Sequence record: PZ445409.1
DNA length: 47,775 nucleotides
Origin: a phage
Strand: one strand, 5' to 3'
Below, piece by piece: positions 1-42,248 of this stretch (position 1 is the stretch's first letter; every line of letters starts with the position of its first letter). The notes under the pieces were generated by a model. The model did not search any database. It was not told the origin of the DNA and saw nothing but the letters and a program-made list of their open reading frames with translations. The position numbers were made by a program, and so were the translations under genes.

Positions 1-1569
1 ATGATCATATGGGAAGATTTGACGGCGGCGCAAAAGCGAGCCATTAAAGAAATCAGTGAGCATTCATTCGAAAAGATGATCAGAATCTGGTTCCAGTTAT
101 TGCAGGGGCAAAAATTCCAGAGTAACTGGCATTTTAGCTTATTGTGCAGTGAGGTAGAGAAGATCATCAATGGAGAGTCGCAGAATGTGATTTTCAATAT
201 TACGCCAGGTAGCGGTAAGACTGAGATTTTCTCGATCCACATGTCACCCTACGCGTCATTGAAAAGCCGGAAGGTGAGAAATCTTAACCTTTCGTTTAGT
301 GATGGCCTTGTCCAGCAAAACAGCAACCGGATAAAGGAGATTATTGGTTCTCCTGAGTGGCAAGAGCTATGGCCAGGAAAACTGGCAAAGGCGAGCGCTA
401 AAGATCTGATAGTCACCGAAGGCGGCAAGGTTAAATTGCAAGTTAACTCACGTTCTATTGGCGGCCAGGTAACAGGTTTGCGTGGTGGCTATATGGACGA
501 TGGTTTTACTGGTATGCTGGTTCTTGACGATCCAGACAAGCCGGATGATATGCTTTCTAAGGTAAAGCGTGAGGCTATCCACATGCGGTTAAAAAACACA
601 GTGCGATCGCGTCGAATGAAAGACACAACTCCGATTGTTATGGTGCAACAGCGACTACACGTTAATGATTCCACCTGGTTTATGCTTAATGGCGGGATGG
701 GTGGTATTGAGTTTAAAGTCGTGAGCATTCCGGCGCTGGTTACGAAAGAATACCGCGAAACGCTTCCTGATTGGTTGAAGCCTGAATTTGATCGTGATGT
801 GCTATCAAGTAAGCCAGTGATGATAGATGGCGTTGCTCATTATTCATTTTGGCCTGCAAAGGAAAGCGCGGAGGAATTGCTTGCATTGCGCAATGCAGAT
901 CCTTACACGTTCGCCAGCCAATACCAACAGCAACCAATCGCGCTGGGCGGGAACGTGTTTAAAACAGAGTGGTTCCAGTATTACGGCAGCGGCGAAAAAT
1001 GCGCACTACCAAAACCTGATCGCTTTGAATACACATTTATTACTGGAGATACCGCGCAGAAGGCCGGAGAGCTTAACGACTATTCAGTTTTTTGTTATTG
1101 GGGGATGTATAAGAATCGCGTTTACTTCATTGATGGCATTCGCGGAAAGTGGGAAGCGCCGGATCTTGAATTAAATTTTATTGCCTTCGTTAACCAGTGC
1201 TGGAAGCGCAATAAGGAGTGTGGCAGCTTGCGACGTATCCACATTGAGGATAAGGCCAGCGGCACGGGTTTGATTCAGGGGGCCAAAAAGAAGATCCCGA
1301 TTGATATAAATCCCGTTCAGCGAAGCAATGACAAGGTGACGCGAGCAATGGACGCCGCGCCAGTAATGAGGGCCGGACGTGTGGCACTGCCAGAAAATCA
1401 CCCCATGCTGCCTGAGATACTAGCAGAGGTTGCAGCATTCACTTTTGATGATTCTCATCCCCATGATGATATTGTCGATAATATAGTTGATGCTGTTAAC
1501 GTCGAAATGAATTTGGCAGATGATCCGGTAGCAAGGATGAAAAAGCTGGCAGGTCTACGCAATAAATAG
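1..1569 (+). CDS. terL: terminase large subunit
   Basis: 522-aa ORF; N-terminal P-loop-like PGSGKT and acidic DDPDKPDD motifs; ATG at 1-3 overlaps the terS stop reconstituted across the window ends; hairpin+T-run follows. Confidence 0.85.
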   Translation: MIIWEDLTAAQKRAIKEISEHSFEKMIRIWFQLLQGQKFQSNWHFSLLCSEVEKIINGESQNVIFNITPGSGKTEIFSIHMSPYASLKSRKVRNLNLSFSDGLVQQNSNRIKEIIGSPEWQELWPGKLAKASAKDLIVTEGGKVKLQVNSRSIGGQVTGLRGGYMDDGFTGMLVLDDPDKPDDMLSKVKREAIHMRLKNTVRSRRMKDTTPIVMVQQRLHVNDSTWFMLNGGMGGIEFKVVSIPALVTKEYRETLPDWLKPEFDRDVLSSKPVMIDGVAHYSFWPAKESAEELLALRNADPYTFASQYQQQPIALGGNVFKTEWFQYYGSGEKCALPKPDRFEYTFITGDTAQKAGELNDYSVFCYWGMYKNRVYFIDGIRGKWEAPDLELNFIAFVNQCWKRNKECGSLRRIHIEDKASGTGLIQGAKKKIPIDINPVQRSNDKVTRAMDAAPVMRAGRVALPENHPMLPEILAEVAAFTFDDSHPHDDIVDNIVDAVNVEMNLADDPVARMKKLAGLRNK

Positions 1570-1598
1570 CACTAATTGCTAAAAAGTTATATAATCAA

Positions 1599-1623
1599 GG
1601 CTGGATTTTTCCAGCCTTTTTTA
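1599..1623 (+). terminator. intrinsic terminator after terL
   Basis: Hairpin ggctggatttttccagcc followed by T-run. Confidence 0.5.
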
Positions 1624-1639
1624 TTATGGAGATTTGACT

Positions 1640-2932
1640 ATGAGCGAAAAAACAAGGCTAGTTAAGGCCGATGGATACAACGAGATTTTCAAGGGTAGCA
1701 AGGGCAATGGGCGTGTGGAGTTGCCTTTCTTTATGCAAGGGTTCGAATACACCACGCACGCTGATTTTTACATTCGCGACGGCCTAGCAAAACGAATTAT
1801 CGACGTTGTTCCAGAAGAAATGGTGACACCTGGATTTAATATTGATGGCGTGGAAGATGAGGAGAGTTTTAGATCTTTGTGGGATGAGAAGCGACTAAAC
1901 GATAAAATCATTGATGCGCTTTGCTGGTCGCGTCTTTTTGGTGGCGCGGCAATCGTGGCAATCGTTCAGGATGGCAGGTCGTTAAAGTCACCTGCAGCGC
2001 CTGGTGCAATCCTTGAAGATGTTCGCGTTTACGATCGCTTTCAGGTTCGCGTAGAAAAGCGAGAAACTAATCCACGCAAGGTGCGATATGGTGAGCCATT
2101 AATTTACACCATTTCACCTGGTGCGGACTTGCCAGAATATCAGGTTCACTATTCGCGAGTCTGTATTATCGACGGTGAGCGGCTACCAAATCAGCGACGT
2201 CAGTCAAATGATGGTTGGGGTGAGTCAATCCTGAATAAGCGATTGGTTGAGGCTATTTGTGATTACAACTACTGCGAAAACTTAGCAACTCAATTGTTGC
2301 GACGTAAGCAACAGGCAGTATGGAAAGCTAAAGGACTTGCCGATCTTTGTGATGATGATGATGGTGTTAACGCCGCACGTTTGCGCCTTGCTCAAGTTGA
2401 TGATGAGGGTGGCGTAGGTCGTGCGATCGGCATTGATGCGGAAGATGAGGAATATGATGTTTTAAATTCTGATATTTCCGGCGTCGATTCATTCCTGGAA
2501 AAGAAGATGGATCGCATTGTATCTCTTTCCGGCATCCATGAAATCATCCTCAAAAACAAGAACGTTGGCGGTGTTAGCGCGAGCCAAAACACGGCGCTTG
2601 AAACCTTCTACAAGCTGATCGATCGAAAGCGAAAGGAAGAATACAAACCAATCCTTGAATTTCTGATCCCGTTCCTGATTCAAGAGGAAGAATGGAGTAT
2701 TCAGTTTGCGCCGTTAAGCGTTCCCAGTGAAAAGGACCAGGCCGAGATCTTGAACAAGAATATTGATTCTTTGAGCAAGGCTATTGACGGTCAATTCATG
2801 GATACAGAGGAGGCGCGCGACACATTGCGAGCCATTGCGCCTAACGTTAAACTAAAGGACGGAAATAACATTAAATTACCTGAGCAGGACGTAGAGCCGG
2901 AGCCAGGAACAACCGAGGGTAGCAATCAATGA
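1640..2932 (+). CDS. portal protein
   Basis: 430-aa ORF directly after terL; GGAG RBS 8 nt before ATG 1640 (track ORF 1634 starts at TTG); size and position typical of portal. Confidence 0.7.
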   Translation: MSEKTRLVKADGYNEIFKGSKGNGRVELPFFMQGFEYTTHADFYIRDGLAKRIIDVVPEEMVTPGFNIDGVEDEESFRSLWDEKRLNDKIIDALCWSRLFGGAAIVAIVQDGRSLKSPAAPGAILEDVRVYDRFQVRVEKRETNPRKVRYGEPLIYTISPGADLPEYQVHYSRVCIIDGERLPNQRRQSNDGWGESILNKRLVEAICDYNYCENLATQLLRRKQQAVWKAKGLADLCDDDDGVNAARLRLAQVDDEGGVGRAIGIDAEDEEYDVLNSDISGVDSFLEKKMDRIVSLSGIHEIILKNKNVGGVSASQNTALETFYKLIDRKRKEEYKPILEFLIPFLIQEEEWSIQFAPLSVPSEKDQAEILNKNIDSLSKAIDGQFMDTEEARDTLRAIAPNVKLKDGNNIKLPEQDVEPEPGTTEGSNQ

Positions 2933-20685: not shown

Positions 20686-20716
20686 CTTCAATACTCCTTA
20701 GTTGTTGTTGACTGTA

Positions 20717-20758
20717 ACTATACACGATCCGACAAGCTGGGTTTAGCAAAAAGTGCTA
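20717..20758 (-). promoter_or_regulatory. phage promoter unit upstream of cor (variant element + TATAGT)
   Basis: Minus strand TAGCACTTTTTGCTAAAC then 18 nt then TATAGT; AAGGAG RBS and cor ATG follow. Confidence 0.5.
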
Positions 20759-21128
20759 CATGTTATTTTTTGTTTTCCGGTGTTATCGGATTTAAGACGG
20801 CGTAAATTTAGCGCAAATTTTAGCCAACATAATAACAATAAATAATCAATAAAATAGATATATACATATAAAATCAATAGTTTATTTATTTATGTATGTA
20901 TATTTGTTTTTTCTTGTTATCTGTGTTCCTTGTGGTTTTGGTTGTTTGTGGTGATTTTTCTTTCTGAGTATCTGTATGTGCCATCATTCATGTGTATGTA
21001 TATAATCCGGCGTATCTGAGAGAACAAGGGAACAAGAAAAATAACACATATTAATCATTAACTTACGAGTCAAATTTGTTTTATTGCCATATGAGAACGT
21101 TTAGAAAACAGAAAAAACAAATCACCTA
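20759..21128. repeat. AT-rich regulatory region A with alternating Pu/Py (GTATGTATAT) blocks and T/G-rich core
   Basis: Noncoding; shares TTCCG-GATAAC elements, GTATsTATAT blocks, T/G-rich core and GGGAACAAGAAAAA (21028-21041) with region B in the same orientation. Confidence 0.5.
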
Positions 21129-21156
21129 TTGACTAAACGCATCAAATAGCTAAAAT
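21129..21156 (+). promoter_or_regulatory. sigma70-like promoter (TTGACT-16-TAAAAT) for recombination operon
   Basis: -35 at 21129-21134, -10 at 21151-21156; GAGGA RBS and ATG 21186 downstream. Confidence 0.55.
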
Positions 21157-21185
21157 GCAGGCATACCAACCAATGAGGACGAATC

Positions 21186-22323: not shown

Positions 22324-22977
22324 ATGCAGCTATCAGAGAAATTCGATCTTGTACTTCCGGCGCTACACAAAGCGCGTTCAATGTTTGTGAAGGTTAAAAA
22401 AGACCGACAAAACAGCCATCTGAAAAACCGTTACGCCACACTTGACGCTGTACTTGATGCAATAACTCCAGCGTTGATGGATAACGACCTAATGCTAATG
22501 CAGGACGGCAGCCGCATCGAAAATAACACGCTGCGAGTCGAAACAACAGTAATGCACACATCAGGTCAGTGGGTGAAATATTTCTTTGACATCCCAATTG
22601 TGAAGAATGATCCGCAAGGCGTAGGTTCTGCTTTCACCTATGGGCGACGTTATGCGGCGGCGGCAGCGTTCGGTTTAAGCCAGGCTGACGACGATGCGCA
22701 AATCGCTGTTAAGTCTGCGAACGACTGGAAACGCGATCTTGATAAATGTGAGTCAGTACCTGAATTGCAGGAAACATTCAAGAAAGCATGGAGCGCAAGC
22801 GATCCAGCAAGTAAACAGGTCGTTAAGGAACACTACGAGAAACGCAAAGCAGAAATCGAAATCGGCGGCGCGCGCGGTTTTAATCCAGCGCAACCAAAAA
22901 AGAATCTTGCAAGTGATTCCGTTGACACCGCAAAACATGAGCAAGTACAATCGGCTAACATCACCGATTTTGAATAA
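22324..22977 (+). CDS. Erf-family single-strand annealing protein
   Basis: 217-aa ORF; [18 protein letters not shown] motif typical of ERF proteins; between exonuclease and SSB. Confidence 0.65.
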
Positions 22978-27542: not shown

Positions 27543-28019
27543 TTAGCTATTCGTGCTGTTATCACCTTTGTAGAATCTTCCGCCTGGTTCGTAGTCTGAA
27601 TTTTTGACTACGCGCAACATTTCGTATTTGTCGCAACGGGTAGTAAGAGGCTTGCCGTTAGAATCAAACCGCAGATCTGGACGACAAAACGAGGCGCGGT
27701 ATCCTTTGCATCCATTATATTTGTAGTCGTTATGCACCTTTTGTGCTCCAGCGGCTGAAATCATACCACGCTTTCGCCATTGGTTAACAACTTGCTGAGA
27801 TACGCGCAGACGTCGAGCCATAGCAGGAACGCCGCCGTAATACTCGATCAGAATGTCAAGGCGAGATTTCAGGCTTGCTTTTACCTCATCTCGCAGGATA
27901 AGAAATCCGGTTCGATGTTTTCGTGGCTTTTTGTCTTTACCTCGTCGCGTTCCGTTGTTACCGTTAATAGTGCGCTTGTCGATCTCACCAGTAGACACTG
28001 CAATTCGTGCATCTTTCAT
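27543..28019 (-). CDS. XRE/Cro-like HTH DNA-binding protein
   Basis: 158-aa ORF with GAGGTGA RBS; helix-turn-helix GGVPAMARRLRVSQQVVNQWRKRG; Cys-rich C-terminal part; inverted copy of the conserved 19-bp element in its 5-prime UTR. Confidence 0.55.
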   Translation of the reverse strand: MKDARIAVSTGEIDKRTINGNNGTRRGKDKKPRKHRTGFLILRDEVKASLKSRLDILIEYYGGVPAMARRLRVSQQVVNQWRKRGMISAAGAQKVHNDYKYNGCKGYRASFCRPDLRFDSNGKPLTTRCDKYEMLRVVKNSDYEPGGRFYKGDNSTNS

Positions 28020-35366: not shown

Positions 35367-36946
35367 CCCAGCAGTATTGGATTGACAAAAATAACACCAT
35401 TAATCACACAAACATAATTTCTTTCTTCCAGCATTGGCAGCAAGTGCCCTTCTATCCTCTTCATTACGCCAGCCTGACCAACGAAAGGTTTTACCTTTCT
35501 CGCTGATTCGTACAGGGCGCGAATATTCAGGATCCCTTTGTTAGCCTTGCCGTGTCTAGTGATCAATTCAATCAATTTACCCATTTCAGCATCATCACCA
35601 GCATAACCAGAAGCATTGGCGGCGCTAATGTATGTTTTGCTCAATTCCTGAAACATGATCAGCGCCTCTTGCATTGTTTCCACGTCGATCTCTTTCGACT
35701 TCTGCGGGTATCCGGCAGGATTAAACCAGTTGCGGATAACATGCAGGACGGAAGCAAGCCTGATCACCTGTTTATCCATTTTACCCAGCGCACCGCGTAA
35801 CATTGTATGAGAATACTTTCCGCCGTCTGCAAGATGCGGTTCCATATCCTGGCGAGCAATGTTGAGCACTCGCATAGCTGAACGGCTTATTTTCAGCGAT
35901 ATATTTGATTCGCTCATGATGTTATGCACCAATTGATAATATTGGGCCTTCAATTCAGGATCCACCGCCTCATAGGTAGAATCACCATTTTCATCAATGA
36001 ATGAGCGACGGCCTAAGAATGATTCCTCACGGACCAACAAAAAGCGCTCACTCACACCGATACCGCGCGATCCAGCGTCCATGATTCCGCTTATCGTTTC
36101 ATCCTGGGCTATAACGCTCATACATCCAAGCGCGCGAAAACTCATGTTATTGTCAGCATTAGCACGGGCAATTGATACGTGACCATTATCCCACGCCTTA
36201 AGCACTAGCTCGCTGTTAGTCTTCCTTTCGCTATTGGCATAGGTCAAGCCTAACAGGCTGTTAATACTTGTTGCTTCGTCAGATATTACGGCAAAGTTAC
36301 CTTGCTTGTTGTTGATTTTCGCCAAGCCTTCTGGAGTGGTATCTGAAACAGGGAAAGTTATATCACACATCTTTTCCAGCTTCTCCTCCAGATCCTCTTT
36401 TTCCTGGTATAGAGATTCCATATCAGCGCCTGATCTTTCGCTTTTCATCTCCTTTGCAAGACCTGCCAACTTTGCCTGTATTTTCTTTCTTTCCTTGCGG
36501 CGTTGCTCGTTGATCTTCTCAACTTCCGCAATCATCGGAGCAATAGCCATACTGTTGATCGCAGATTTACCAGTTGACGGCGGCTGGCTTGTAACTACGT
36601 AAAGCGCAGTCGGCTGATCTGTTCCGTGGTAGTCAACTGTGAATCGACCAAGCATAGCGGCAGAAATACATCCGATAAAGTGCATGTAGGCCGATGATTC
36701 AGGGAATTGAACAGATCTCGCAAGATTGCGCGCCAGCTTACCAACTACATCAACATCATTCCCAAGTGAAATAACAGGGTAGCGGTCGTTACCGCCGTTA
36801 ATATCTTCCACCTGGCCCCAATAGCTTGAAGATTGGCGGTATCCGTTGGCCTGAATGGATACACGAACAGGGGAAATACCTTGAGATTCGGCGGTTTCAA
36901 TGATTTGTTTCGGTGATAACTGACTTGTTTCAAATGAAAAATTCAT
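35363..36946 (-). CDS. P-loop NTPase (DUF3987/primase-helicase-associated-like)
   Basis: 527-aa ORF with AGGAG RBS; deviant Walker A (QPPSTGKS), central charged coiled-coil segment; driven by promoter unit 36974-37016. Confidence 0.5.
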   Translation of the reverse strand: MNFSFETSQLSPKQIIETAESQGISPVRVSIQANGYRQSSSYWGQVEDINGGNDRYPVISLGNDVDVVGKLARNLARSVQFPESSAYMHFIGCISAAMLGRFTVDYHGTDQPTALYVVTSQPPSTGKSAINSMAIAPMIAEVEKINEQRRKERKKIQAKLAGLAKEMKSERSGADMESLYQEKEDLEEKLEKMCDITFPVSDTTPEGLAKINNKQGNFAVISDEATSINSLLGLTYANSERKTNSELVLKAWDNGHVSIARANADNNMSFRALGCMSVIAQDETISGIMDAGSRGIGVSERFLLVREESFLGRRSFIDENGDSTYEAVDPELKAQYYQLVHNIMSESNISLKISRSAMRVLNIARQDMEPHLADGGKYSHTMLRGALGKMDKQVIRLASVLHVIRNWFNPAGYPQKSKEIDVETMQEALIMFQELSKTYISAANASGYAGDDAEMGKLIELITRHGKANKGILNIRALYESARKVKPFVGQAGVMKRIEGHLLPMLEERNYVCVINGVIFVNPILLG

Positions 36947-40059: not shown

Positions 40060-40102
40060 AATGTACAGGAATGCGAGGATTGAGTTTTAACAAAAAGTGC
40101 TA
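40060..40102 (-). promoter_or_regulatory. phage promoter unit (element + TACATT)
   Basis: Minus strand element 1 nt after TAA stop; hexamer followed by conserved ACACGCATC leader. Confidence 0.6.
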
Positions 40103-40582: not shown

Positions 40583-40836
40583 TTTTTCTTCTCCTGCAAT
40601 AAGCAAACATCATTGATAAAATCAGCGCGGCCTTTAATGTTGCTGATGTGGAAAGTCTTTTCAGCGTACAGGCCATCACCTTCAATCACGATCATTACGC
40701 GAGTCGGTTTATTCACGGGCGCACATGAAAAGAGTGGGCGCACCGGAAGAAATTTAGTAGTCACATCCAGGTTATCCCTGGCCGCCCTGCAAAATGCCTC
40801 CGCCAGATCTAAATCATTTTCGGTAATCACCGCCAT
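40570..40836 (-). CDS. hypothetical protein (paralog of 40370-40582)
   Basis: 88-aa ORF; TAATG overlap with upstream gene. Confidence 0.5.
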   Translation of the reverse strand: MAVITENDLDLAEAFCRAARDNLDVTTKFLPVRPLFSCAPVNKPTRVMIVIEGDGLYAEKTFHISNIKGRADFINDVCLLQEKKKCWM

Positions 40837-41108
40837 TACTTCTTGATCTCCTCACTGATAAATTTCAGCACCCGGCGCAAGAAAACTTCGTTGTTGATAG
40901 TCGCTGGCAATTCTTCTTTCACCTCTTGCGGCAGATAGATATTGCCGTGCCAGGTCAAGCAATCGTAGTTGATACGATAAGAGCAAAGCCACTCGCAATC
41001 GTTATCTGCTTCCCAAATGCAGAGTTGCAGAACATCTCCTAAGTTCTCAACAGTCAGATCCAGACCGTGACGCTTAGCGAAATTGAAAGTGGTTTTGCTG
41101 ATGTTCAT
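40836..41108 (-). CDS. hypothetical protein (first gene of leftward operon)
   Basis: 90-aa ORF with AGGAG RBS, 30 nt after promoter hexamer at 41144-41149. Confidence 0.5.
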   Translation of the reverse strand: MNISKTTFNFAKRHGLDLTVENLGDVLQLCIWEADNDCEWLCSYRINYDCLTWHGNIYLPQEVKEELPATINNEVFLRRVLKFISEEIKK

Positions 41109-41143
41109 TTGCTATCTCCTGAGCGGTTTGTTTTGATGTGTGT

Positions 41144-41186
41144 AATGTACCCGATCAGGTGGCCTGAGTTTTAACAAAAAGTGCGA
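41144..41186 (-). promoter_or_regulatory. phage promoter unit (variant element + TACATT), first leftward promoter
   Basis: Minus strand TCGCACTTTTTGTTAAAAC + 18 nt + TACATT + ACACACATC leader; AGGAG RBS; ATG 41108. Confidence 0.6.
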
Positions 41187-41218
41187 TTTGACGGTTAGCG
41201 CCAGGATTGTGATAGAAA

Positions 41219-41306
41219 TAATCAAAAGTAATCATTCGTAATCAAATCACGTCAAAATGATGATTGCCTTTGCAAATTTGATGAGAAAAGTAATCACGTT
41301 TAATCA
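41219..41306. repeat. 10-bp-phased GTAATCA/TAATCA iteron-like repeats
   Basis: TAATCA at 41219, 41229, 41239 and at 41291, 41301 (exact 10-bp spacing within each set); partial inverted copy TGATTG at 41261. Confidence 0.5.
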
Positions 41307-41726
41307 TTGGTTGCAGTGGAGATAGTGAAACCTTCCCCTCTTGCCTCACTTTTCCGCCTGGCTGTCAGTGGTTGTTATGTTCCGTTTTCGCCTGTTCTTT
41401 TGTTGACCTTCCGCAAAATACGATAACAAAAAATAACAAACAATACCTATATAATACATTGAAAAATAAGGATTATTTATTTATATGTATCTATATATTC
41501 TCTTTTGTTATCTTGGTTATTGTGGTATTTGGTGGGGGTATATAGTTTTTGTGTATCTATATGTGTGTATGGGTATGTAGGGGCATATATATCTATATGG
41601 CACTTTCCGCGATAAAACTTCGATAACAAGCAATGATAACATTGATTTATAAGGAAAAATAACGCCCATATTGTTATTGTGCCACCATATAAAATTGATA
41701 AAACACGCGGGAACAAGAAAAAACAG
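41307..41726. repeat. AT-rich regulatory region B, paralogous to region A
   Basis: TTCCGC..CGATAAC at 41409-41427 and 41605-41627; GTATCTATAT blocks at 41487, 41553, 41589; T/G-rich core 41499-41545; GGGAACAAGAAAAA at 41709-41722. Confidence 0.5.
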
Positions 41727-41755
41727 TTGACACATTAAATAGCATTATTGATAAT
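41727..41755 (+). promoter_or_regulatory. near-consensus sigma70 promoter (TTGACA-17-GATAAT with TG) for rightward operon
   Basis: -35 at 41727-41732, extended -10 TGATAAT at 41749-41755; preceded by GGGAACAAGAAAAA element. Confidence 0.6.
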
Positions 41756-41783
41756 GCCCACACCTAACAACCAGGAGGTAGAA

Positions 41784-42248
41784 ATGAGCGAGCAATCATT
41801 CACTGACACGCTGCGCCGTGCCGCTATTATGCTTGCCAATGGCGAGGAAGAGACGATCAAGATTCCTGACGCGTATTTGCAGGTCCACATGTTCGGCAAG
41901 AAGTCGGCAAGCAATCCGGCGGCCTACATTCGCCAGATCATGAGTCGAGTGCCAGAAGTCGCCGAGCGGGGGCGTGTATCCGTTACACGTGGCGTTTACG
42001 GGCCGGAAGATGAAAACTTCGGTAGCACTTTCTACGAGGTGCGGATTGTTGAAGGCCGTCGCAAGGTTTACAACAAAGAGGCACTGGAAAGGGCAGTGCG
42101 CCAGGCTAAGCGCAAGGTTGCAGAGGCGATCATTGATATGTCACCAAACCTGGCAAACTATGCGCCGGAAGAGTATGAAACATTATCAAAGGCCGTCGCT
42201 GACTTTCACGCGATGATCAAAAAAACTTTCCTGGAGGATGAGCAATGA
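41784..42248 (+). CDS. hypothetical protein (first gene of rightward operon)
   Basis: 154-aa ORF from ATG 41784 with AGGAGG RBS, downstream of near-consensus sigma70 promoter 41727-41755. Confidence 0.55.
   Translation: MSEQSFTDTLRRAAIMLANGEEETIKIPDAYLQVHMFGKKSASNPAAYIRQIMSRVPEVAERGRVSVTRGVYGPEDENFGSTFYEVRIVEGRRKVYNKEALERAVRQAKRKVAEAIIDMSPNLANYAPEEYETLSKAVADFHAMIKKTFLEDEQ

What the first reader, a model, noticed from the sequence alone, without database searches (positions are those of the whole stretch)
41109..41783. Divergent early control region B (675 bp noncoding) with repeated elements and Z-DNA-like Pu/Py blocks
This is the largest noncoding stretch. It separates the leftward operon (promoter unit 41144-41186) from the rightward operon (sigma70 promoter TTGACA-17-TGATAAT at 41727-41755). 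Between them lie 10-bp-phased GTAATCA repeats, two TTCCGC...CGATAAC elements (41409-41427, 41605-41627), three GTATCTATAT alternating purine/pyrimidine blocks flanking a T/G-rich core (41499-41545), and GGGAACAAGAAAAA directly upstream of the -35. The combination looks like an origin of replication and/or a multi-operator early switch region.
Basis: partly seen in the sequence, partly recalled or inferred. Interest (0 to 1): 0.55.

Follow-up and report, generated by a model that had tools for sequence, protein, structure and literature searches.

The report
T1-like phage control and packaging hub
This 675-base gene-free stretch of a T1-like coliphage is a real, conserved control hub: it holds two outward-facing promoters, the spot where DNA packaging starts in related phages, and a 420-base repeat-plus-AT-rich module, present twice in the genome, that is a candidate for the family's still unmapped replication origin.

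Summary

The window is a Warwickvirus (Drexlerviridae, T1-like). All relatives examined keep a 673-783-nt gap at this position. The gap has three parts.

1. A leftward promoter unit (41144-41187). It is one of 15 copies of the family's "21-nt repeat". That repeat matches the MarA/SoxS/Rob marbox consensus perfectly, with the class II spacing seen at micF.
2. A ~170-nt cassette (41196-41366) carrying 10-bp-phased TAATCA repeats. Genome ends reported for T1, TLS, MSK and SU57 map to the matching place, so this is the probable packaging start (pac).
3. A ~420-nt module (41367-41783) that is a paralogue of the other large gap (20752-21183). It has phased TGTTAT/ATAACA repeats around one of the two least stable AT-rich stretches of the window, then a G/T-skewed stretch, and it ends in the sigma-70 promoter.

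The packaging function was missed, and the Z-DNA idea is not supported. All the elements are of known kinds. The module duplication and the marbox match were not found in the literature I could search.

The parts
41109..41143 (-). Predicted 5' leader and ribosome-binding site (CTCC 41117-41120 = GGAG on the minus strand) of the first leftward gene (start codon 41108-41106). Predicted transcription start is near 41136.
   Evidence: An almost identical leader follows the repeat copy at 40085. The transcription start is inferred from the -10-like hexamer and was not measured.
41144..41149 (-). -10-like hexamer TACATT of the leftward promoter P_L.
   Evidence: It lies exactly 20 nt after the marbox core. 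The same offset carries TANNNT in 9 of 16 repeat copies (p = 1.6e-13) and CATAAT in 3 more.
41169..41187 (-). Family-wide '21-nt direct repeat' ATCGCACTTTTTGTTAAAA. Its core, 41170-41184, is a perfect marbox consensus (GCANNWWNTGNNAAA) centred near -41 of P_L.
   Evidence: The consensus and class II definition come from PMC12052159. The spacing is identical to E. coli micF. This stretch is 80-90% conserved across genera.
41196..41366 (+). Cassette absent from the paralogous region A; probable packaging-initiation (pac) region and left genome end. It contains TAATCA x3 (41219-41244, 10-bp phase), TGATTG (41261-41266), the inverted repeat ATTGCCTTTGCAAAT (41263-41277), TAATCA x2 (41291-41306) and the purine-rich GTGGAGATAGTGAAAC (41316-41331).
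   Evidence: Reported ends in relatives lie 162 nt (T1), 195 nt (TLS), 206 nt (haarsle contig break), 221 nt (MSK, PhageTerm) and 239 nt (SU57, PhageTerm plus coverage step) from the leftward start codon. That corresponds to roughly window 41270-41350. TGATT/AATCA density here is the highest in the window, 7 per 120 nt against a mean of 0.64. This block is 96-97% identical in 59 records, with a mosaic boundary at 41376.
41367..41783 (+). ~420-nt module, a paralogue of window 20752-21183 (region A, upstream of recE).
   Evidence: Local alignment score 151, against 32 +/- 5 for shuffles. It still exceeds all 200 block shuffles that keep local composition (z 6.5-8.2). The same A-B paralogy is found in T1, TLS, haarsle and MSK.
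41373..41438 (.). Left repeat set: phased TGTTnn repeats (TGTTAT 41373, TGTTCC 41378, TGTTCT 41393, TGTTGA 41401), the TTCCGC...CGATAAC element (41409-41427), and ATAACA x2 in 10-bp phase (41423, 41433).
   Evidence: ATAACA/TGTTAT occurs 12 times in the 851 nt of the two modules against 36 times in the remaining ~46.9 kb, an 18-fold enrichment. Tandem Repeats Finder gives period 10 at 41423-41445. The arrangement is conserved in paralogues and orthologues.
41414..41513 (.). AT-rich core and candidate DNA-unwinding element. It includes the conserved CCTATATAATAC (TATAAT at 41450-41455) and GGATTATTTATTTATATGTATCTATAT.
   Evidence: Second least stable 100-nt stretch of the window (-1.04 kcal/mol per step; window mean -1.365, sd 0.07). 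The least stable is the matching core of region A. About 90% identical between Warwickvirus and Hanrivervirus, where the module as a whole is ~70%.
41484..41600 (+). G/T-skewed stretch (78% G+T, about 5% C). It contains TGTTATC (41506), GTATCTATAT at 41487 and 41553, and ATATCTATAT at 41589.
   Evidence: the two most G/T-skewed 100-nt windows are 20880 (region A) and 41484. Across genera the composition is conserved while the sequence is not.
41605..41677 (.). Right repeat set: TTCCGCGATAAAACTTCGATAAC (41605-41627), ATAACA at 41623 and 41636, and TGTTAT at 41672.
   Evidence: It is a direct-repeat counterpart of the left set; region A has CCGGCG...GAGAACAAGGGAACAAG at the matching place.
41709..41755 (+). 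Rightward early promoter P_R: A-tract GGGAACAAGAAAAAACAG (41709-41726), -35 TTGACA (41727-41732), 17-nt spacer, -10 GATAAT (41750-41755).
   Evidence: It is conserved in Hanrivervirus and TLS. TLS authors list the homologue as P01, one of three sigma-70 promoters they predicted. Promoter activity was not measured.
41773..41786 (+). Ribosome-binding site AGGAGG (41773-41778) and start codon (41784) of the first rightward gene, a DUF7174 protein.

Best explanation
The stretch is a three-part cis-acting hub of a T1-like phage genome.

(a) Leftward promoter, 41144-41187. This promoter has no usable -35 element. In its place sits a perfect marbox centred near -41. Host RNA polymerase is therefore expected to be recruited by a MarA/SoxS/Rob-type activator, as at class II promoters such as micF.

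(b) Packaging cassette, 41196-41366. The 10-bp-phased TAATCA/TGATT cassette is the packaging start. Terminase would bind there late in infection, cut the concatemer nearby (about 41270-41350) and fill heads rightwards.

(c) Duplicated module, 41367-41783. It ends in the strong sigma-70 promoter P_R, which starts early rightward transcription. Upstream, phased TGTTAT/ATAACA repeats bracket the AT-rich core. I take this to be one of two replication origins: a phage protein on the repeats, helped by the negative supercoiling between the two divergent promoters, opens the AT core.

What is shown: the sequence features, their conservation, the paralogy, and the mapped ends in relatives.
What is inferred: activator dependence, terminase binding, the cut position in this particular phage, and all of the origin function.

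My sub-probabilities:
- promoters real: 0.9
- P_L works as a marbox-type unit: 0.55
- pac lies in or next to the cassette: 0.7
- the module is an origin: 0.4
For: Conservation. A 673-783-nt non-coding gap is kept between the same two gene families in three subfamilies.

Promoters. See for P_R. For P_L, together with PMC12052159 and PMC8811837.

Packaging.
- The T1 record starts 162 nt from the leftward gene and annotates a terminal repeat at 1..2800.
- The TLS pac site was mapped by restriction digests to the start of its record.
- The MSK PhageTerm terminus is at 36,862, forward direction.
- The SU57 end was placed by PhageTerm plus an abrupt step in read coverage.
- All four ends fall beside or within TGATT-type repeat clusters.
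- The cassette is missing from paralogue A.

Origin-like module.
- The paralogy is significant under stringent controls.
- In T1, MSK and TLS, the two copies within a genome are more alike than orthologues across subfamilies.
- The two modules hold the two least stable and the two most G/T-skewed stretches of the window.
- The repeats are enriched and helically phased.
- No origin has been identified for T1-like phages.
Against: - No end-mapping or replication data exist for this phage.
- The T1 and TLS record starts may be accurate only to tens of bases, and the haarsle end is merely a contig break.
- In this genus most repeats point the opposite way (AATCA) from those in T1, TLS and MSK (TGATT).
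- TerS identity simply follows taxonomy, so there is no co-variation that ties TerS to any repeat.
- The module sits exactly where promoter-upstream and regulator sites are expected, and P_R is part of the duplicated unit. A purely transcriptional role would explain the paralogy equally well.
- There are no DnaA boxes and no recognisable initiator gene next to either module.
- Similarity of the AT core to the oriC 13-mers is not significant.
- No activator binding has been shown for the marbox match.
Confidence: 0.4

Rival explanations
1. The 420-nt module is only a transcriptional control region. It would be an extended upstream region of the early sigma-70 promoter, duplicated together with it. 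The TGTTAT/ATAACA repeats would be operators or enhancer sites for a phage regulator that switches early transcription on or off. A candidate is the Cro/YdaS-like HTH protein at 27543-28019, which has its own sigma-70-like promoter. The AT-rich and G/T-rich DNA would supply curvature or UP-like function. Replication would start elsewhere or by recombination.
For: - Both modules end in canonical sigma-70 promoters. In TLS these are two of only three that the authors predicted, and the third drives the regulator.
- The window has the corresponding sites at 41727, 21129 and 28098.
- The regulator is an HTH protein.
- T1-like phages carry RecE/Erf recombination genes, so recombination-driven replication is conceivable.
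Against: - The best-conserved part of the module is the AT core 230-300 nt upstream of P_R, not the promoter-proximal DNA.
- No repeat overlaps the -35 or -10 element, which is where repressor operators usually sit.
- The repeats are direct and phased rather than the palindromes expected for Cro-type dimers.
- The extreme strand skew has no obvious transcriptional role.
Confidence: 0.3
2. The TAATCA array is not the packaging site. It would be an operator or upstream activating array for the leftward promoter, or a binding array for a nucleoid protein. The real pac recognition sequence would lie elsewhere in the gap or elsewhere in the genome.
For: - The array lies at about -80 to -170 of P_L.
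- Repeat orientation differs from T1, TLS and MSK.
- Hanrivervirus and T1 carry different repeats (TTATTCC/GGAATA) at the same place although their TerS proteins are not especially alike.
Against: - Four independently reported ends in relatives map within or next to this block.
- The paralogous leftward promoter in region A works without any such array.
- The MSK/SU57 mosaic boundary coincides with the reported SU57 end.
Confidence: 0.2
3. The gap hides a small protein gene or a structured non-coding RNA.
For: ORFs of 57-79 codons exist in the gap, and some GenBank records annotate hypothetical proteins there.
Against: - The ORFs shift frame between 97%-identical phages and are absent or different in other genera. 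They are the expected by-product of a stop-poor C/A-rich strand.
- No Rfam family matches.
- Folding energies are no better than shuffles.
Confidence: 0.04
4. The alternating purine/pyrimidine blocks form Z-DNA or cruciforms that act as the functional element.
For: Short TA/TG alternating runs are present, the longest being 14 nt at 41558-41571.
Against: - The GTATCTATAT blocks are not strictly alternating.
- The runs are A/T-rich, which favours melting over Z-DNA according to general knowledge of Z-DNA energetics.
- Ten other runs of comparable length occur elsewhere in the window.
- Single-strand folding of the cassette and of the core is not significant.
Confidence: 0.03

Closest known systems
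Left genome end / pac region of coliphage T1 (NC_005833, position 1) and of TLS, MSK and SU57
   Same: Same place in the gene order: between the leftward small-gene operon and the rightward DUF7174-type gene. The gap is 700-783 nt in those phages. It has the same marbox-type leftward promoter, TGATT-type repeats around the reported end, the same AT-rich block further right, and rightward packaging. The site lies 6-9 kb upstream of terS.
   Different: The repeat sequence and its orientation are genus-specific. No end has been mapped for this phage or genus. The recognition sequence itself has not been defined in any member; TLS authors picked AGATTT only by its resemblance to P22 pac.
Phage P1 pac site (hexanucleotide repeats flanking the cut; from my own knowledge of the P1 literature, not checked here)
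   Same: Two clusters of a short repeated hexamer (3 + 2 copies here), helically phased, flank a central region of about 45 nt. Several relatives have GATC sites beside the reported end.
   Different: P1 pac lies inside the small-subunit gene and its hexamers contain GATC. Here the site is far from terS, and this phage's cassette has no GATC.
Iteron-plus-AT-rich origins, especially two-copy systems (SPP1 oriL/oriR, P4 ori/crr, lambda ori; from my own knowledge, not checked here)
   Same: Short repeats phased at about 10 bp, in both orientations, bracket an easily melted AT-rich stretch. Two related copies lie about 20 kb apart in one genome and evolve in concert.
   Different: No initiator protein is identified. 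Neither copy lies within or beside a recognisable initiator gene. No DnaA boxes. Nothing shows that replication starts here.
Class II marbox promoters of E. coli (micF, lpxC, lpxL, rfaY)
   Same: Perfect match to GCANNWWNTGNNAAA, forward orientation, centre near -41, 20 nt between the marbox core and the -10 hexamer exactly as in micF, and no good -35 element (PMC12052159; PMC8811837).
   Different: It is carried by a phage in 15-21 nearly identical copies per genome. Dependence on MarA, SoxS or Rob is untested. The upstream ATA and the T-run are far more uniform than in host marboxes.
The 21-nt intergenic direct repeats of phage TLS (aaATAGCACnnnTTGnTAAAA; PMC11447400)
   Same: The same element. 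P_L of this region is one copy of it.
   Different: The TLS paper leaves the function open, suggesting stoperators, enhancers or UP elements. The fixed 20-nt distance to a -10-like hexamer and the marbox identity are added here.

Membership tests
Sigma-70 promoter (P_R) | -35 and -10 hexamers close to consensus with a 16-18 nt spacer, placed upstream of a gene | tested here: met
   TTGACA-17-GATAAT is an 11/12 match, 29 nt upstream of the start codon, and one of three such sites in the window. It is conserved in Hanrivervirus and TLS.
Sigma-70 promoter (P_R) | Transcription start demonstrated | not testable with these tools
   No transcript 5'-end data for any T1-like phage were found in the searchable library.
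Class II marbox promoter (P_L) | Match to the marbox consensus GCANNWWNTGNNAAA | tested here: met
   41170-41184 (-) is a perfect match. The window has 15 perfect matches against 1.58 expected.
Class II marbox promoter (P_L) | Forward orientation, overlapping the -35 position, centre between -36 and -55 | tested here: met
   The core reads in the direction of the gene. There are 20 nt to TACATT, the same as micF's 20 nt to TAGAAT, which puts the centre near -41.
Class II marbox promoter (P_L) | Binding of and activation by MarA, SoxS or Rob | not testable with these tools
   Needs band-shift assays and a host lacking rob, marA and soxS. No MarA-like gene was found in the phage, so a host factor would be required.
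pac site of headful-packaging phages | The first-headful virion end maps to the site | tested here: inconclusive
   Met for relatives (T1, TLS, MSK, SU57). No read data or end mapping exist for this phage.
pac site of headful-packaging phages | Recognition by the small terminase subunit | tested here: inconclusive
   A repeat cluster is present, but the TerS-versus-repeat co-variation test gave no signal.
pac site of headful-packaging phages | Location within or next to terS, as is usual in P22, SPP1, Sf6 and P1 | tested here: not met
   terS lies about 9.4 kb downstream in tiwna, 8.4 kb in T1 and 6.1 kb in haarsle. This is a usual feature rather than a defining one, and the T1 family is a known exception.
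Iteron-type replication origin | Cluster of repeated short binding sites | tested here: met
   ATAACA/TGTTAT is enriched 18-fold and phased at 10 bp. T1 and TLS have lineage-specific variants of the repeat. This is a sequence feature only.
Iteron-type replication origin | Adjacent easily unwound AT-rich element | tested here: met
   41414-41513 is the second least stable 100-nt stretch of the window, and the paralogue holds the first.
Iteron-type replication origin | Cognate initiator protein, usually encoded nearby | tested here: not met
   The flanking genes are DUF7174 and a protein of unknown family. The phage helicases, primase and HTH regulator are encoded elsewhere, and none is a recognised initiator.
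Iteron-type replication origin | Replication starts there | not testable with these tools
   Needs marker-frequency sequencing, 2D gels or an origin-test plasmid.
oriC-type (DnaA-dependent) origin | DnaA boxes TTWTNCACA | tested here: not met
   None in the region; 4 in the whole window against 5.9 expected. The alignment to the oriC 13-mer region is not significant.
Z-DNA-forming tract | Long strictly alternating purine/pyrimidine run, preferably CG or TG | tested here: not met
   The longest run is 14 nt and A/T-rich, the listed blocks break alternation, and similar runs occur elsewhere.
Structured non-coding RNA | Rfam match or folding better than shuffles | tested here: not met

The most novel reading that the evidence does not exclude
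The 420-nt module and its twin at 20.75-21.18 kb would be the two long-sought replication origins of T1-like phages, a pair like oriL/oriR. Each would sit between divergent promoters whose firing helps melt the AT core, and one would abut the packaging start. At the same time the family's repeated promoter element, including this region's leftward promoter, would be a genuine class II marbox. Most phage transcription would then be wired to the host MarA/SoxS/Rob stress regulators.
Probability: 0.2. Interest if true: 0.75.

Novelty: new member of a known kind. Interest (0 to 1): 0.5.

Why it matters
T1-like phages are classic, very common laboratory and industrial contaminants. Yet recent papers on SU57 and TLS still report that the origin was not found, that the pac sequence is undefined, and that the function of the 21-nt repeat is an open question.

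This region, with its paralogue, turns all three into specific and cheap experiments:
- two defined ~100-nt AT cores with flanking repeats to test as origins;
- a ~170-nt cassette to test as the packaging signal, which would be useful for transduction tools and for orienting genome records;
- a host-activator hypothesis for phage promoters that a rob/marA/soxS mutant host would test directly.

If none of these holds, the region is still an ordinary divergent promoter gap.

Tried and rejected
- DnaA boxes and consensus IHF sites: none in the region.
- Rfam, tRNA and tmRNA searches: nothing credible.
- RNA and single-strand DNA folding: no better than shuffles.
- Hidden ORFs: not conserved.
- I tested whether the phage 'transcriptional regulator' is a P4-alpha-type origin-binding domain. 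It matches Cro/YdaS-type HTH proteins instead.
- I tested whether TerS co-varies with the TTATTCC/GGAATA repeats shared by T1 and Hanrivervirus. TerS identity simply follows taxonomy.
- Similarity of the AT core to the oriC 13-mers: score 39 against a shuffle maximum of 50, not significant.
- Copies of the region in E. coli chromosomes or plasmids (for example satellites borrowing the pac site or origin): none.
- Solved-structure relatives of the DUF3987 helicase, the primase and DUF7174: none by sequence.
- Literature search for a T1-family origin, transcript map or marbox link: nothing found. The original T1 genome paper is not held, so I could not check how its position 1 was set.
- Chi-like TGGTGG motifs in the G/T-rich stretch were considered. 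I dropped them because they match Chi at only 6 of 8 positions and are oriented the wrong way to protect the left end. This was reasoning only.
Full report
**Identity and context.** The window is a T1-like siphovirus. The stretch 41000-41900 is 97% identical to Escherichia phage tiwna and 14 other records (Drexlerviridae, Tempevirinae, Warwickvirus). The finding lies between the first gene of a leftward operon (40836-41108) and the first gene of a rightward operon (41784-42248, DUF7174). The window opens with a 522-codon ORF (1-1569) that corresponds to tiwna's large terminase gene. The small terminase gene lies in the ~3 kb of genome that the window does not include.

**Checking the observation.**
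- The gap is non-coding. Its 57-79-codon ORFs change frame and length between 97%-identical phages and differ across genera. There is no tRNA and no credible Rfam match. Folding is no better than shuffles.
- It is the largest true gap. The next is 494 nt at 20692-21185.
- The TAATCA array (41219, 41229, 41239, 41291, 41301) is far from chance. None of 20000 Markov simulations reached five copies within 90 nt, and Tandem Repeats Finder gives a period of 10.
- The 'Z-DNA-like' label is weak. The GTATCTATAT blocks are not strictly alternating. The longest perfect run is 14 nt and A/T-rich, and similar runs occur elsewhere.

**The gap is a conserved feature of the family.** A gap of 673-783 nt separates the same two gene families in tiwna, tonnikala, vojen, pSf-1, haarsle, TLS, T1, MSK and SU57. 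Conservation is mosaic:
- The first ~82 nt are 80-90% identical across genera.
- 41109-41376 is 95-97% identical in 59 records.
- 41377-41783 is about 98% identical in only 15 records and about 70% identical in Hanrivervirus.

**Part 1, the leftward promoter.** This is the 21-nt direct repeat described for TLS, whose function its authors list as an open question.
- The window has 19 matches with up to 3 mismatches, against 2.8 expected. I analysed the 16 with at most 2 mismatches; in 11 of them a ribosome-binding site and start codon follow 50-66 nt after the repeat on the same strand.
- Nineteen bases after the repeat there is a -10-like hexamer. It is TANNNT in 9 of 16 copies (p = 1.6e-13) and CATAAT in 3 more. 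The repeat therefore spans about -51 to -33 and is not an ordinary -35 element.
- Its core, GCACTTTTTGTTAAA, is a perfect match to the published marbox consensus GCANNWWNTGNNAAA (PMC12052159). There are 15 perfect matches in the window against 1.6 expected, and these are the repeat copies.
[quoted passage not shown] In E. coli micF, a class II marbox promoter with the activator centred at about -41 (PMC8811837), the marbox GCACTGAATGTCAAA is also followed by exactly 20 nt and then TAGAAT.
- The same elements abound in T1, TLS, MSK, SU57 and vojen.
- I found no MarA-like gene in the phage.
- The inference, untested, is that these promoters, P_L included, use a host MarA/SoxS/Rob-type activator.

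**Part 2, the cassette 41196-41366.**
- The T1 reference record begins inside the homologous gap, 162 nt from the leftward start codon, and annotates 1..2800 as the terminal repeat.
- The TLS record begins 195 nt from the leftward start codon, at a pac site located by restriction mapping.
- PhageTerm placed the MSK terminus at 36,862 in the forward direction, which is 221 nt into its gap.
- The SU57 record, opened at an end supported by PhageTerm and an abrupt step in read coverage, starts 239 nt in.
- A haarsle contig ends 206 nt in.
- The SU57 authors state that pac lies in this untranslated region in T1-like phages but was not identified.
- In T1, TLS and MSK the ends fall among TGATT repeats. 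T1's position 1 lies inside a GATGTGATTGTTGC direct repeat.
- In the window the matching place holds the densest TGATT/AATCA cluster of the whole sequence, 7 in 120 nt against a mean of 0.64, though mostly in the opposite orientation.
- MSK and SU57 are 97% identical up to the SU57 end and diverge right after it. In the window's own group the mosaic boundary is at 41376.
- I therefore assign packaging initiation to this cassette, with a probability of about 0.7. The first cut is expected near 41270-41350, with packaging running rightward.
- TerS identity follows taxonomy, so co-variation gives no extra support.

**Part 3, the module 41367-41783.** A scan of the window for extreme composition gave an unexpected result.
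- The two most AT-rich and least stable 100-nt stretches lie in this gap (41414) and in the other large gap (20815). So do the two most G/T-skewed stretches (41484 and 20880).
- The two gaps align over about 420 nt, 20752-21183 against 41367-41783. The score is 151 against 32 +/- 5 for shuffles.
- The score still exceeds every one of 200 shuffles confined to 10-nt blocks, which keep the local composition.
- The same paralogy exists in haarsle, TLS, T1 and MSK. In T1, MSK and TLS the two copies within a genome are more alike than orthologous copies across subfamilies: 121, 172 and 145 against 40-92 for T1 and MSK. The copies therefore evolve in concert.
- The shared layout, from left to right:
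  1. three or four TGTTnn repeats at 9-10-bp intervals;
  2. a CCGGCG/TTCCGC...GATAACA element;
  3. two ATAACA copies in 10-bp phase;
  4. the AT core, with CCTATATAATA and TTATTTATTTAT;
  5. TTGTTATC;
  6. about 100 nt of G/T-rich DNA;
  7. a second CCGCG...GATAACA-type element;
  8. an A-tract;
  9. the sigma-70 promoter.
- ATAACA/TGTTAT is 18-fold enriched in the modules. T1 uses TGTAACA/TGTTACA instead (6 copies against 0 in 23 kb), and TLS uses GTGAAC/AGAACA types.
- Region B therefore equals a region-A-type unit (leftward marbox promoter plus module) with the pac cassette inserted between the two.

**What the module does.** Two readings compete.
- *Origin.* The layout of phased short repeats in both orientations around an easily melted core, with two concerted copies, resembles iteron-type origins and two-copy systems such as SPP1 oriL/oriR or P4 ori/crr (my own knowledge, not checked here). 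The core lies between divergent promoters, where negative supercoiling should favour opening (inference). No origin is known for the family.
- *Transcription only.* Each module ends in a canonical sigma-70 promoter. In TLS these are two of only three that the authors predicted, and the third drives the HTH regulator and primase. The repeats could therefore be regulator sites for an early switch.
- Against the transcription-only reading, the best-conserved segment is the AT core 230-300 nt upstream of P_R, and no repeat overlaps the core promoter.
- Against the origin reading, there are no DnaA boxes and no recognisable initiator nearby. The resemblance to the oriC 13-mers is not significant, and there are no replication data.
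- I put the origin at about 0.4, a purely transcriptional role at about 0.3, and other architectural roles for the remainder.

**Comparison with what is known, and novelty.** That pac lies in this gap is already stated for T1-like phages, so that part is known at the level of the region. The promoters, a pac cassette and an iteron/AT-rich element are all known kinds of element. I did not find the following in the literature I could search:
- the decomposition of the gap into these three parts;
- the duplication and concerted evolution of the 420-nt module;
- the fixed spacing of the family repeat from a -10-like hexamer, and its identity with the marbox.

The original T1 genome paper could not be read.

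**Verdict.** This is a real, conserved, multi-function control region. Interest is moderate. Nothing here is categorically new, but the region makes three open questions about a classic phage family directly testable.

Noticed in passing
window 1569, 6192, 9950, 20742, 28034, 30523, 31594, 34836, 37000, 37677, 40086, 41170, 42505, 43806, 45126 (15-nt cores): The family's '21-nt direct repeat' (function listed as an open question for TLS) matches the MarA/SoxS/Rob marbox consensus GCANNWWNTGNNAAA perfectly in 15 copies, against 1.6 expected. Each copy points toward the downstream gene. A -10-like hexamer follows 20 nt after the core, exactly as at E. coli micF, which is class II geometry. The same holds in T1, TLS, MSK, SU57 and vojen. 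No MarA-like gene is found in the phage. This suggests host Rob/MarA/SoxS-dependent phage promoters.
   Followed up: yes
window 20692-21185: The second-largest non-coding gap, between a cor-like leftward gene and recE, is a paralogue of 41367-41783. It holds the least stable and most G/T-skewed DNA of the window, a leftward marbox promoter (20742-20756) and a rightward TTGACT-16-TAAAAT promoter (21129-21156). It is conserved and mostly unannotated in 156 phage records, including Klebsiella, Enterobacter and Hafnia phages.
   Followed up: partly
GenBank MG0656xx records (hits H48-H52, H64-H69, H176-H187): About 15-18 records named 'Campylobacter phage' with host Campylobacter jejuni carry these T1-like coliphage regions at 70-75% identity. 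Their naming or host assignment looks doubtful.
   Followed up: no
window 41376/41377; L009 and L018/L019 (MSK against SU57, about nt 237 of the gap): Mosaic (recombination) boundaries coincide with the end of the pac cassette. MSK and SU57 are 97% identical up to the reported SU57 end and then diverge. In the window's group, 59 records share 41109-41376 but only 15 share what follows. Packaging-generated DNA ends may be recombination hot spots.
   Followed up: partly
T1 record NC_005833, about 95-115 (L002): T1 carries a second leftward marbox-type repeat (TTTTAGCAAAAAGTGCTAT) inside its gap, to the right of record position 1. In T1 the reported genome end therefore lies between two tandem leftward promoter elements.
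   Followed up: no
window 22922-22951 (+) and 26637-26609 (-): The only other 11/12 sigma-70 consensus matches in the window lie inside coding sequence: upstream of the ssb-like ORF, and inside the 3' part of the primase gene upstream of the side tail fibre gene.
   Followed up: no
window 1566-1640: The repeat copy just after the large terminase gene is atypical. TATAAT follows after only 5 nt, and a terminator-like hairpin (AAGGCTGG...CCAGCCTTTTTT) comes next, instead of the usual 19-nt gap and leader.
   Followed up: no
window 41736-41749 and 21143-21150: The spacers of both rightward sigma-70 promoters contain AAATAGC, the first half of the marbox-type repeat. The second half is missing, and the motif is not conserved in Hanrivervirus region B.
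   Followed up: no
window 41459-41520 against E. coli oriC (L024 83-136): The AT core aligns with the oriC AT-cluster and 13-mer region (ATTGAAAAATAAGGATTATTTATTTAT against ATTAAAAAGAAGATCTATTTATTTAG). The score of 39 is within the range of shuffles (maximum 50), so this is a lead only.
   Followed up: partly
relatives' gaps (T1, TLS, haarsle, vojen): Two to three GATC (Dam) sites cluster 20-50 nt to the left of the reported ends in T1, TLS and Hanrivervirus. They are absent from the cassette of this window and from MSK. The phage encodes two adenine methyltransferases.
   Followed up: no
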